A stretch of 64,000 bases of DNA, taken from assembly GCA_034780895.1 (NCBI GenBank), contig JAUZTB010000017.1, positions 29,833,573 through 29,897,572 of the forward strand, in the 5' to 3' direction. This DNA is from Rhynchobatus australiae. Lineage: Eukaryota. Positions 45,001 to 48,000 of this stretch are shown here, piece after piece. A program made the position numbers. Positions within the stretch are counted from its first letter, which is position 1. Each line of letters opens with the position of its first letter.

Positions 45001-48000
45001 GTGAGGATATCACAGAAACTGCCGTTCCTTTGCTTTATACAATTGGAATACTTTATGGTCAGGGATTTTGCTCCACCTCTAAATGTTTGACGTCAAAACA
45101 ATTGTCCAAACAAAGCGGCCTTAAAAAAAAGGTCAGCTGTCGCCATAATGCCAAAATGAATTAGAGAAAATTAAACACGTACAGCATTCTTCAAAAATTG
45201 TAATCTTCACTGACCGCAATGGGGGCCTACCGGATGATAACGTTGTCTACAGCTCATGCTTCTCAACAGTACGGCCGCTGGATTTTTCCTNNNACCAACA
45301 TATATTTTACTGTATTTAAAATTTATCTCTTATACTTTAGACAGCCAGTGAACAATGATAACGATACTCTCAATTTTATATATGAAGCAAAAATTATTGG
45401 CAACATAGTGAAAACGCTGCATAAATTAAACAAGTATTGAAGGCATCTGGGTCCATTGCTTTTCAGCCAAGATTTTTTGGGAGTAGGGGTTCACAAAGAA
45501 CCTCGGTGTTAGACAGTGACAAGAACATGTTCATAGGAACCGGGGATATATTTGGACCGATCTTTGTAACTGACCAGCTGAAAAGAACAGATGCGGTATT
45601 TTCACTGCAATGTCACATCCCTTAAAGATGGCACTACAATATGGCTGTGAAGGTCATGTCCTAACGCGTCTTTTGTACATCTGGTTATGAAGAAAATATT
45701 GGAGGGCGCATTACTGTACCTGAAATTGCAACATGCCGTTGTTGTTGTCCGTCCTAAAGGCGTTGTCGTCCATCCAAGACTTGGGGTTCAATGTGGGTGC
45801 AGTTCGAGGGAACTTAGGAGGGGCGATCACATTGCTGGAGAAGGGTTTCTTGAGCGGAGAGATAGGATTGAGAGGGGACGGCACCCCAACGGCTCGCCGG
45901 GGATCCCTGGCTTGTAGCCCGCTCCAAGGGTTGGGGGCAGTGCTCCAGGTCGTGTTCTGGTGGTTGTTCCAAGCCGAAGAAGGCTTGCTTGTCATGATGG
46001 GCTGGTGGCTGTAGGCGCTGCGTTGGGCGAAGGGAGCCTGCGGGCTGACCGGCGACCTCCTCTGCTGCTGTTGCTGTTGGGCGGCTTGGTGGTGCTGTGT
46101 CTGTTGAGCCAGACCGATCTGCGGCGAGAAAGTGCCACCGAAAACCGGGTTGACGTGAGTGAAATTTTGGAACAGCATCGTCCCATTCACTGGCGGGATC
46201 CCTTGGAAAAAGCTATCATCTACGGTGTTGGTGGTGCCGGTGGACCACGTACTGAACGAAGGGGACAAGGAGGTACCAGGCTCCTGGGGTTGAAAGCTCA
46301 AACCGGGCAAAATTGGCGATTCCATCTGCGCCTTCTCTTTATTCTGGCCAGAAACCGGGGCGTTTATACTCACGGAGCTCTCTTCTGATTTGGGGGTTTC
46401 TGCGGCTTCGGTACTTTGCTCTGACCTTGGTGAAAGCTGCTGGGGTTTGCTTTTGTCCATCAGTAAATCATCCTGCATGGTTTGCGGAGCTGAAACAGGA
46501 AAAAACAAAGACGCATTATTATTAGCTGTGTTCTGGTACTCCGGCGCCGGCGAAAATCCTGTATTATTGCTAGGTGACTGTAAAGCAAATCTGTAATCCC
46601 CCATTTAGCAGAGGGGTGGTTGGGGGGGTAGGGAGCAATATTAATAGTTCTCTTTTGAAAGAAGGAGGAGCGGCTTCACCCTTTCGTGTTCTGGTTTGCC
46701 CTCGGAATGAGAGATTTGGGATGCGGGCACAGATATTCACCAATTTCGCCACGTCTTTCTTTACACCGGAACTTCAGCTCTCACCCGCAATGTGAAACTG
46801 ATTCTTGTTCCTGTTCAAGAGCTTTCAAAGCCCTTTGCTAATTTACATACGTCAATAAATAGTGCNNNNNNNNNNNNNNNNNNNNNNNNNNNNNNNNNNN
46901 NNNNNNNNNNNNNNNNNNNNNNNNNNNNNNNNNNNNNNNNNNNNNNNNNNNNNNNNNNNNNNNNNNNNNNNNNNNNNNNNNNNNNNNNNNNNNNNNNNNN
47001 NNNNNNNNNNNNTGCAGCTCTGGGCACCATACTGCATTTTATTTAAACTCCCTGACCAACTGGAAGGGGGTGGGGAGAAAGAGATGCAGAAACAGAAACC
47101 TGCCTAAATCGAGTAAACAACAGCCTGTTTTGCACCAAAATTATCTTCGAACGTTAAACGAATAGGCGATTCGTTGAAAATACGACTTCATAACAAAATA
47201 AATGAAACAACCCGCCCTTAAAGCAGCAAAAGCTCATTTGACACGTAACTTATGACCTTGTCCATTTTATTCACGTCTGCATATTATTGACACGAATTAG
47301 ATTTCCAGCCCCGAGCACAATGAGATTTTACAAAGTCCCCAAAATCTCCTGCGTATTGTCATTTCTCGAGCAGCATATTTACGCCATTTATCTACACTAA
47401 CAAAATGTTTTTTTTATATATAAAATGGCTCCTTGATTTGCACGCCAAACGACGATTGGACAACTCCTAATTCTACTTTCTGAAGGACAAATTATATTTA
47501 TAAAAAAAGACTGATATCAAAATGACGAACTACAAAATACTCTTCCGCATTCTATAATGGCATTATTCAATTGAAATTTTAATCTGACCACTATGCAAAT
47601 CAGCAATCAAATCAAAACGTCGCTAAATTAACATGTTTAAAATGCACGTGTATTTTTAATCAGAATAATTATTTATCGTCAGCAGCACCAGACCCTCAAG
47701 GTCATTGTCAACTCGTATCCACATTCATGCCAAATGTTGCCAGTTTCATTTTAATTGGTTACGTACAGAGCTTAAAAAAGAGATGGCATTTCCTAAAAAA
47801 AATCAATATTAGATACATTCATTGTTCTAAATACCAAACGCGAGAAGAATAAAAATGAGTTATCTCCAGCAGGGCGTAAATGACAAGCGCTCTTCTAAAT
47901 AAATTGTTCTCTTAAACATAGGCAATGCTTCGTTTCTAACAACAAAAGGTCAGCTTTACAAATAAAATATTAATCCAAGTTAACCGACGAACTATATAAA

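What the first reader, a model, noticed from the sequence alone, without database searches (positions are those of the whole stretch)
46479..47100. Two alternative 3' splice sites may switch the CPEB3 N-terminus; one acceptor lies inside coding sequence
Seen: the codons for SLFFPVS in the extension double as a strong pyrimidine tract plus CAG acceptor (exon start 46489, 11 nt before ACCATG of MQDD). A second strong acceptor lies 570 nt upstream (exon start 47059). Inference: the proximal site removes the MGDY ATG and gives the mammalian-type protein, while the distal site keeps it. The MGDY ATG has a weak -3 (taaATGG) and the MQDD ATG a strong one (accATG), so leaky scanning could give both proteins from the long mRNA. 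This could be an intermediate showing how the short CPEB3 start arose.
[Added by the scan's program, not by the reader: the finding's places include an assembly gap (unread letters, written N; its length is only estimated) at 46866 to 47012. Whether the letters on both sides are continuous or in frame is not known: test that first.]
Basis: partly seen in the sequence, partly recalled or inferred. Interest (0 to 1): 0.72.

Follow-up and report, generated by a model that had tools for sequence, protein, structure and literature searches.

The report
Shark CPEB3 first coding exon, two heads

Summary
The window is a shark CPEB3 locus on the minus strand, not human.

- **Proximal acceptor (exon start 46489): real.** In 141 CPEB3 proteins from other species, 23 distinct alternative N-terminal peptides all join the common sequence at the same codon, four residues before MQDD. 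That codon is split after its first base, as 46489 predicts. Leader exons that feed this site map upstream at 48576-48438 and about 48137-48054.
- **42-codon MGDY extension: ancient coding sequence.** It aligns with the N-termini of CPEB4, CPEB2, a hemichordate CPEB3-like protein and a tick orb2. Long CPEB3 forms are predicted in 56 of the 141 proteins, many of them mammalian. The shark is therefore not an evolutionary intermediate.
- **Distal site (47059): unsupported.**
  - Equally strong sites occur 11 times on this strand of the window.
  - It would add at least 3 upstream ATGs.
  - It lies beyond an unread gap.
  - None of 23 named cartilaginous-fish proteins starts with MGDY.
- **Leaky scanning: hindered** by an out-of-frame ATG at 46516.

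The long mRNA more likely starts in the ATG-free 241 nt just before the MGDY ATG (inferred). This is ordinary biology and largely already present in public annotation.

The parts
45720..46604 (-). First coding exon of CPEB3 read from the MGDY ATG: 295 codons, ending at the donor cag|gtacag (GT at 45719-45718, phase 0)
   Evidence: best hits are shark CPEB3 (Heptranchias perlo 98%; Mustelus, Pristiophorus and Scyliorhinus 96%); tblastn of P0134 residues 1-253 onto 46478-45720.
46479..46604 (-). 42-codon N-terminal extension (MGDYRFALQS ... SLFFPVSAPQT). ATG at 46604-46602, with an in-frame TAA at 46607-46605 just before it
   Evidence: It aligns with long CPEB3 forms and with CPEB4, CPEB2, Saccoglossus, pseudoscorpion and tick N-termini. 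It is 39/42 identical in a second shark-like ORF, P0125.
46490..46525 (-). Proximal 3' splice site: branch-point-like CTAAT (46525-46521, A at 46522, -33), pyrimidine tract 46511-46492 (18/20), AG at 46491-46490; exon starts at 46489
   Evidence: The junction codon (-4) is split after its first base. All 23 distinct alternative N-terminal peptides in other species diverge exactly there.
46476..46478 (-). MQDD start codon, context caaaccATGc; start of the short (canonical) protein
   Evidence: 44 of 141 orthologue proteins start here.
46460..46516 (-). Out-of-frame ATG (46516-46514, ataataATGc) with an 18-codon frame that ends past the MQDD ATG; removed by the proximal splice
   Evidence: also visible.
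46605..46845 (-). 241 nt without any ATG directly upstream of the MGDY ATG; candidate leader of the long mRNA (inferred)
   Evidence: only 47 of 5678 equal-length windows on this strand are ATG-free, and 121 of 5000 shuffles. CpG o/e here is 0.66 against 0.26 for the whole window.
46866..47012 (.). Assembly gap (N), one of 20 in the window; not filled
47059..47081 (-). Distal acceptor-like site: tract 47081-47062 (19/20 pyrimidines), AG at 47061-47060, exon start would be 47059; use unproven
   Evidence: Upstream ATGs follow it at 47037, 47030 (both open into the gap) and 46848 (ATG-TAA).
48438..48576 (-). Non-coding leader exon in the CpG island, with donor ctg|GTTAGT (last exon base 48438). 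It ends after the first base (G) of a codon
   Evidence: the N-terminal peptide of the Narcine bancroftii X1 model aligns to 48576-48442, E = 1.9e-14, 62% identity, with a stop codon in the window copy. Donor.
48054..48150 (-). Second candidate leader exon with donor cgg|GTAAAT (last exon base 48054); weak homology only
   Evidence: the Rhincodon typus model peptide aligns to 48137-48096 (E = 0.57) and, after a frame shift, up to the donor.
47362..47443 (-). Stretch similar to the upstream exon of the Cetorhinus maximus models; no donor of 7/9 or better found here
   Evidence: two ordered HSPs, E = 0.033 and 0.44.
48400..49199 (.). CpG island (GC 0.48-0.65, CpG o/e 0.73-1.10); likely distal promoter
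   Evidence: sequence.
26360..26533 (-). Next CPEB3 coding exon (residues about 250-307 of shark CPEB3)
19122..19202 (-). Following CPEB3 coding exon (residues about 304-330)

Best explanation
This is the 5' end of a shark CPEB3 gene. Its first coding exon has two uses.

(a) Internal exon, giving the short protein.
- Transcripts start at the CpG-island promoter about 2 kb upstream.
- Their non-coding leader exons end at donors 48438 and probably 48054.
- They splice to the acceptor at 46490|46489.
- This removes the MGDY ATG and the out-of-frame ATG at 46516, and leaves 11 nt before ACC-ATG of MQDD. The product is the canonical short CPEB3.
- The pyrimidine tract of this acceptor is made of the codons S-L-F-F-P-V-S of an older reading frame.

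(b) The older frame, giving the long protein.
- The 42-codon frame (MGDY...) is the ancestral head of the CPEB2-4/Orb2 family. It is still open and conserved here.
- It must be read from an mRNA that keeps 46604-46490.
- Most likely that mRNA begins in, or just upstream of, the ATG-free 241 nt before the MGDY ATG. The exon would then be a first exon for a proximal promoter and an internal exon for the distal one.

Shown: the anatomy, the conserved junction position, the deep homology of the extension, and the mapped leader exon.

Inferred: that the long form is made in this shark, and where its mRNA starts.
For: Junction.
- Of the 120 proteins listed plus 21 cluster members (141 in all), 44 start at MQDD, 56 have the long MGDY-type head, 36 carry another peptide and 5 lack MQDD.
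- The 36 give 23 distinct peptides. All converge on the common sequence at codon -4, with A or S there. That is what a split N|CT codon at 46489 yields.
- Nine such proteins come from five cartilaginous fishes: Mustelus, Cetorhinus, Stegostoma, Rhincodon and Narcine.
- A mouse cDNA product is quoted as beginning QQAAQT before the M, and mouse 5'UTR exons 1, 2 and 3 alternately join the start-codon exon (PMC2807433, section 5 read).

Leader exons.
- The Narcine peptide maps to 48576-48442 with E = 1.9e-14, next to donor ctg|GTTAGT, and ends on a G in the right phase.

Extension.
- The blocks MGDY.F, (T/S)(G/A)(F/L)(S/P), NN and SLF(F)P, followed by TMQDD (IQDE in CPEB4), recur in Mauremys CPEB4, Geotrypetes CPEB2, Saccoglossus CPEB3-like, Cordylochernes CPEB2 and Amblyomma orb2.
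- The CPEB4 head is also printed in 10.1101/2023.03.19.532587 (passages seen).

Leader of the long form.
- 46845-46605 holds no ATG. Only 0.8% of equal-length windows on this strand are ATG-free.
- CpG o/e is 0.66-1.44 across 46000-47999, against 0.26 for the window.
Against: - None of the 23 named cartilaginous-fish CPEB3 proteins I read starts with MGDY: 12 short, 9 alternative, 2 without the region. For the largest cluster, only 15 of 53 members were listed.
- A search with residues 1-45 alone found nothing (3 candidates, none with E <= 10).
- Between the window and the one other shark-like ORF (P0125, unnamed record), the extension has 3 changes in 42 residues against 2 in 253 for the rest of the exon (Fisher p = 0.022). 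That fits weak or no recent constraint.
- The MGDY ATG has a poor -3 base.
- All junction evidence comes from predicted protein models whose transcript support I could not inspect.
- No transcription-start data exist here. The unread gap lies only 262 nt upstream of the ATG and may hide exons, ATGs or a start site.
Confidence: 0.62

Rival explanations
1. One upstream donor chooses between two 3' splice sites. Use of 47059 keeps the MGDY ATG and gives the long protein. Use of 46489 gives the short protein.
For: - The 47059 site has the best tract on this strand in the region: 19/20 pyrimidines, CAG, and no AG in the 15 nt before it.
- It lies inside the intron that the mapped leader exons (donors 48438 and 48054) must remove, so it would be exposed to the spliceosome.
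- The segment is unique in the window and is not a repeat.
Against: - Strength alone predicts little. Of 11 equally strong sites on this strand, 8 lie at no known CPEB3 exon, while the true acceptors of the exons at 26.5 and 19.2 kb fall below that threshold.
- The only branch-point-like motif within 60 nt is TTTAC at -55.
- The leader it creates starts with ATGs at 47037 and 47030, both with A at -3, plus 46848, ahead of a weak MGDY ATG.
- The exon would exceed 1.3 kb and would span an unread gap.
- No cartilaginous-fish model starts with MGDY.
Confidence: 0.2
2. Relic reading. In sharks only the short protein is made. The 42-codon frame is an untranslated remnant. Its 3' end is kept by the splice signal. 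Its 5' end is kept by slow shark sequence evolution or by a non-coding role.
For: - 0 of 23 named cartilaginous-fish proteins are long.
- The extension changes about 9 times faster than the rest of the exon between two sharks.
- The MGDY ATG has a weak -3 base.
- An open run of 42 codons is not rare by chance (my own estimate, not computed).
Against: - After the shark-bony vertebrate split, the head still matches at MGDY.FALQS, TGFS, NN and SLFFPVSA.QT. Those matches lie outside as well as inside the splice signal.
- The three changes seen between the two sharks fall at positions that vary across the family.
- The 241-nt leader is ATG-free.
Confidence: 0.2
3. Leaky scanning on a single long mRNA yields both the long and the short protein.
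For: The first ATG has T at -3 and the second has A at -3.
Against: - An out-of-frame ATG at 46516 with A at -3 lies between the two starts. Its frame ends at 46460, after the MQDD ATG. Ribosomes that skip MGDY would mostly be captured there.
- The conserved splice to 46489 already explains the short form.
Confidence: 0.1

Closest known systems
Mouse Cpeb3 alternative 5'UTR exons 1-3 joined to the start-codon exon 4 (Wang and Cooper 2009, PMC2807433; abstract, section 5 and passages read)
   Same: Several upstream non-coding first exons splice to one acceptor a few codons before the MQDD start. A quoted cDNA product begins QQAAQT-M, which places the junction at the same position as 46489.
   Different: The paper treats all of these transcripts as giving one protein and does not mention a longer MGDY frame. 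Here the leader exons are mapped only by homology to predicted models.
N-termini of CPEB4 and CPEB2 (P0147 Mauremys CPEB4, P0148 Geotrypetes CPEB2; CPEB4 sequence in 10.1101/2023.03.19.532587)
   Same: They share the head architecture: MGDY.F ... NN ... LF.P ... then the block that starts the short CPEB3.
   Different: In CPEB4 the internal Met position reads IQDE, so no short start is available there. From recall, not tested: these paralogues start translation in their first exon.
Drosophila Orb2A / Orb2B (PMC5138630, PMC3480640, PMC3921104; search listing and abstract openings only)
   Same: They belong to the same protein subfamily. Two isoforms differ only in the residues in front of the Q-rich prion-like region, and that head controls aggregation and memory.
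   Different: No sequence link between the Orb2A head and the MGDY head was tested. Nothing is known about the function of the long CPEB3 head.
Hybrid first/internal exons (10.1101/2021.05.27.446076; search listing only)
   Same: One exon serves as a first exon from one promoter and as an internal exon, through an inner acceptor, from another.
   Different: The first-exon use is inferred here, not observed.

Membership tests
CPEB3 orthologue (CPEB2-4 subfamily) | Best matches over the N-terminal exon are CPEB3 of related species | tested here: met
   Heptranchias perlo 98%; Mustelus, Pristiophorus and Scyliorhinus 96%; E down to 8e-157.
CPEB3 orthologue (CPEB2-4 subfamily) | C-terminal RRMs and ZZ domain | not testable with these tools
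   Only exons up to about residue 330 lie in the window. Pfam finds no family in the exon-1 protein.
   both sites lie downstream of donors 48438 and 48054.
   Proximal site: 23 distinct peptides in other species join at the homologous codon. Distal site: no evidence of any kind, and no transcript data are available.
Hybrid first/internal exon with alternative promoters | An inner acceptor used by transcripts from an upstream promoter | tested here: met
   the mouse literature.
Hybrid first/internal exon with alternative promoters | A transcription start directly upstream of the same exon | not testable with these tools
   Only indirect signs: the ATG-free 241 nt and non-depleted CpG.
Leaky-scanning dual-start mRNA | Weak first AUG, strong second AUG | tested here: met
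   tgctaaATGg against caaaccATGc.
Leaky-scanning dual-start mRNA | No AUG between the two starts | tested here: not met
   ATG at 46516, out of frame, with A at -3; its frame ends at 46460.
Orb2A/Orb2B-type N-terminal isoform pair | Two heads in front of the same Q-rich region | tested here: met
   Sequence level only.
Orb2A/Orb2B-type N-terminal isoform pair | Isoform-specific aggregation or function | not testable with these tools
   Needs experiments.

The most novel reading that the evidence does not exclude
CPEB3 of jawed vertebrates, this shark included, makes a second and so far unstudied protein form. It carries the ancestral MGDY head (42-60 residues) in front of the prion-like domain. 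It is transcribed from a promoter inside the first intron of the canonical transcript. The choice of head would tune aggregation or localisation, as the Orb2A/Orb2B pair does in flies. The vertebrate short form would have arisen when the pyrimidine-rich codons of the old L-F-F-P motif were taken over as a splice-acceptor tract.
Probability: 0.3. Interest if true: 0.6.

Novelty: new member of a known kind. Interest (0 to 1): 0.35.

Why it matters
Work on CPEB3 as a prion-like memory protein uses the MQDD start. That statement rests on my recall and on the mouse paper read.

The data here show a longer head, conserved from arachnids to mammals, still encoded in front of that start. A splice acceptor built from its own codons decides whether it is kept.

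In five searches of the held library I found no paper that describes the MGDY form of CPEB3. The string MGDYGF occurred in only one paper, which concerns CPEB4.

If the long form is expressed, it would be an obvious variable to test in aggregation and memory studies. For this window itself the result is mostly a clarification. One acceptor is real and conserved, the other is unproven, and the shark is not a transitional state.

Tried and rejected
- **Search with the extension alone** (residues 1-45, longer proteins): 3 candidates, none scored. No information gained.
- **Search among proteins of similar length**: 50 hits. Only three named fish entries cover the whole query (Clarias magur, Merluccius polli, Boleophthalmus pectinirostris). 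There was no shark-like full-length entry. The unnamed entries at 53-61% identity could come from any vertebrate, people included, so I did not open or use them.
- **Rfam scan of the window**: 0 matches, so no known structured RNA explains the region.
- **Pfam on the exon-1 protein**: 0 families.
- **Repeat check of the segments flanking the gap**: unique in the window, so the distal tract is not part of a repeat.
- **Donor for the Cetorhinus-like stretch (47443-47362)**: none at 7/9 or better. I leave that exon open.
- **Paper searches** for a described long CPEB3 form: none found. PMC3564943 concerns 3' ends only.
- **Two paper calls failed on term syntax** and were re-sent corrected.

Not done:
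- No nucleotide comparison with other vertebrates, because no eukaryotic genome collection is on hand.
- Supplements are closed. The list of translated 5' regions in PMC11317171 might bear on a long CPEB3 form. Its main text holds no 'CPEB3' according to the listing.
- The gap was not filled.
- A joined (spliced) model was neither built nor searched. Exons were compared one by one.
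Full report
**What the window is.** The finding lies on the minus strand in the first coding exon of a CPEB3 gene. The exon read from the upstream ATG (46604-45720, 295 codons) finds shark CPEB3 as its best matches. 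Heptranchias perlo is 98% identical; Mustelus, Pristiophorus and Scyliorhinus are 96%. Mammalian CPEB3 is about 55% identical. Two further CPEB3 exons lie at 26533-26360 and 19202-19122. The window holds 20 assembly gaps.

**Check of the observation.**
- The MGDY ATG is at 46604-46602 (tgctaaATGg), with a TAA codon directly before it.
- The MQDD ATG is at 46478-46476 (caaaccATGc), 42 codons downstream in frame.
- The codons tct ttg ttt ttt cct gtt tca g form an 18/20 pyrimidine tract ending in cAG, so an exon could start at 46489. That is 11 nt before the ATG.
- A CTAAT branch-point motif sits at -33.
- The upstream site ...ccccttccAG gives an exon start at 47059 with a 19/20 tract.

**The gap, tested first.**
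- The Ns (46866-47012) lie between the upstream site and the MGDY ATG. They touch neither the reading frame nor the proximal acceptor.
- Five in-frame stops lie between the gap and the ATG. Frame continuity across the gap therefore does not matter for the protein.
Its length, its content and its contiguity are unknown.
- Two upstream ATGs run into the gap.

**The proximal acceptor is real.**
- I read the N-termini of the 120 proteins listed and of 21 members of the cartilaginous-fish clusters.
- Of these 141, 44 start at MQDD, 56 carry a long MGDY-type head, 36 carry some other peptide and 5 lack the region.
- The 36 give 23 distinct peptides. All join the common sequence at the same codon, four residues before the M of MQDD, with Ala or Ser there.
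- In the window that codon is g|ct. An exon starting at 46489 supplies CT and the upstream exon supplies the first base, so G gives Ala and T gives Ser.
- Two of the 23 (Candoia, Lissotriton) look to me like diverged long heads rather than separate exons.
- Nine of the alternative forms come from five cartilaginous fishes.
- In mouse, published work describes 5'UTR exons 1, 2 and 3 alternately joined to the start-codon exon. It quotes a cDNA product that begins QQAAQT before the M (PMC2807433, section 5).

**Where the upstream exons are.**
- The unique peptide of the Narcine bancroftii model aligns to 48576-48442 with E = 1.9e-14. The window copy has a stop codon, so it is non-coding here.
- It ends next to the donor ctg|GTTAGT, last exon base 48438, after a G in the right phase.
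- This exon lies in a CpG island at 48400-49199 (GC 0.48-0.65, CpG o/e 0.73-1.10, against 0.26 for the window).
- The Rhincodon model peptide matches weakly at 48137-48096 (E = 0.57). After a frame shift it runs on to the donor cgg|GTAAAT at 48054.
- The Cetorhinus peptide matches 47443-47362, but I found no donor there.
- All of these models join the proximal site.
- I compared exons one by one. A joined model was neither built nor searched.

**The extension is old coding sequence.**
- A search of 1.84 billion representatives gave 45 hits.
- Those later named include Mauremys CPEB4, Geotrypetes CPEB2, Saccoglossus CPEB3-like, Cordylochernes CPEB2 and Amblyomma orb2.
- All start M-G-(D/E)-Y and share further blocks: a (T/S)(G/A)(F/L)(S/P) motif, an N-rich patch, and SLF(F)P.
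- The block that opens the short CPEB3 follows. It reads TMQDD in the invertebrates and CPEB2, and IQDE in CPEB4.
- The CPEB4 head is also printed in a preprint.
- Both the long head and the internal Met therefore predate vertebrates.
- Long CPEB3 forms are predicted in coelacanth, lungfish, Polypterus, many teleosts and many mammals, including Myotis, Macaca, Sus, Bos, Lynx, Felis and Acomys.
- This removes the idea that the shark is an intermediate. It shows the state common to jawed vertebrates.
- A fair inference is that the acceptor tract was recruited from the pyrimidine-rich codons of the old L-F-F-P motif before sharks and bony vertebrates split.

**Evidence against a working long form in sharks.**
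- None of the 23 named cartilaginous-fish proteins I read starts with MGDY: 12 short, 9 alternative, 2 lacking the region. For the largest cluster only 15 of 53 members were listed.
- A search with residues 1-45 found nothing.
- The only other shark-like copy of the frame is an unnamed ORF, P0125. It is open and 39/42 identical. The extension carries 3 changes in 42 residues against 2 in 253 for the rest of the exon (p = 0.022).
- The three changes fall at positions that vary across the family.
- The start context is weak.

**The distal site.**
- Its only merit is its strength, and strength predicts little here.
- The minus strand has 11 sites at 18/20 or better with YAG and no nearby AG. Eight are at no known CPEB3 exon and one is inside the coding sequence (46251). 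The true acceptors of the next two exons fall below that cut.
- By my arithmetic, about 0.1 such site is expected by chance per 600 nt.
- The site has no good branch motif within 60 nt.
- An exon starting there would open with ATGs at 47037 and 47030, both with A at -3, plus an ATG-TAA at 46848. All precede a weak MGDY ATG.
- By contrast, the 241 nt from 46845 to 46605 hold no ATG. Only 47 of 5678 windows of that length on this strand are ATG-free, as are 121 of 5000 shuffles.
- That pattern fits a leader that begins downstream of 46848, meaning a proximal start rather than the 47059 acceptor. This is inference; no start-site data exist.

**Leaky scanning.**
- An out-of-frame ATG at 46516 (A at -3) lies between the two starts. 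Its 18-codon frame ends at 46460, beyond the MQDD ATG.
- It would capture most ribosomes that skip the first ATG.
- The proximal splice removes it.

**Verdict.**
The proximal acceptor and the coding nature of the extension are supported well. The distal acceptor, leaky scanning and the 'intermediate' reading are not.
- The most likely mechanism is a dual-use exon. It is an internal exon for the distal CpG-island promoter, giving the short protein. It is probably a first exon for a proximal start, giving the long protein.
- Much of this is already visible in public protein predictions and in the mouse literature.
- The point not found in the papers I could search is that CPEB3 keeps the ancestral MGDY head as an alternative form.

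Noticed in passing
window 63780-63998 (+): An exon-like open stretch on the opposite strand encodes a RING-variant (RINGv, PF12906) domain, E = 4.9e-15. This points to a MARCH-type E3 ligase gene lying head-to-head with CPEB3. The CpG island at 48.4-49.2 kb may be a shared two-way promoter. The gene name MARCHF5 is from recall only.
   Followed up: partly
window 48883-48909 (-): A CAG/CAA trinucleotide run (about 9 units) lies inside the CpG island upstream of the leader exon.
   Followed up: no
window 46251 (-): A third strong acceptor-like site (18/20 pyrimidines, CAG) lies inside the coding sequence, in the codons for ...SLSPSFS|TW. The mouse paper describes a 388-nt partial skip within the start-codon exon (PMC2807433). 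Whether this site is related was not tested.
   Followed up: no
window 48054-48150 (-): In the candidate leader exon, an ATG at 48150 is open up to the donor at 48054 and ends in the phase that would continue into the MQDD frame. Gene predictors would call such a peptide an alternative N-terminus, as in the Rhincodon model. The frame is not conserved between the two sharks.
   Followed up: partly
whole window: No Rfam family reaches its gathering score. No CPEB3-ribozyme-like element lies in the intron sequence covered here.
   Followed up: yes
whole window: There are 20 runs of N. They include a 3-N run at 45291-45293 just downstream of the first coding exon and a 587-N run at 34811-35397.
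   Followed up: no
window 47200-47999: CpG o/e is 1.0-1.4 at low GC (0.29-0.40) across the whole stretch between the CpG island and the coding exon, against 0.26 for the window. This suggests a broad unmethylated domain.
   Followed up: partly
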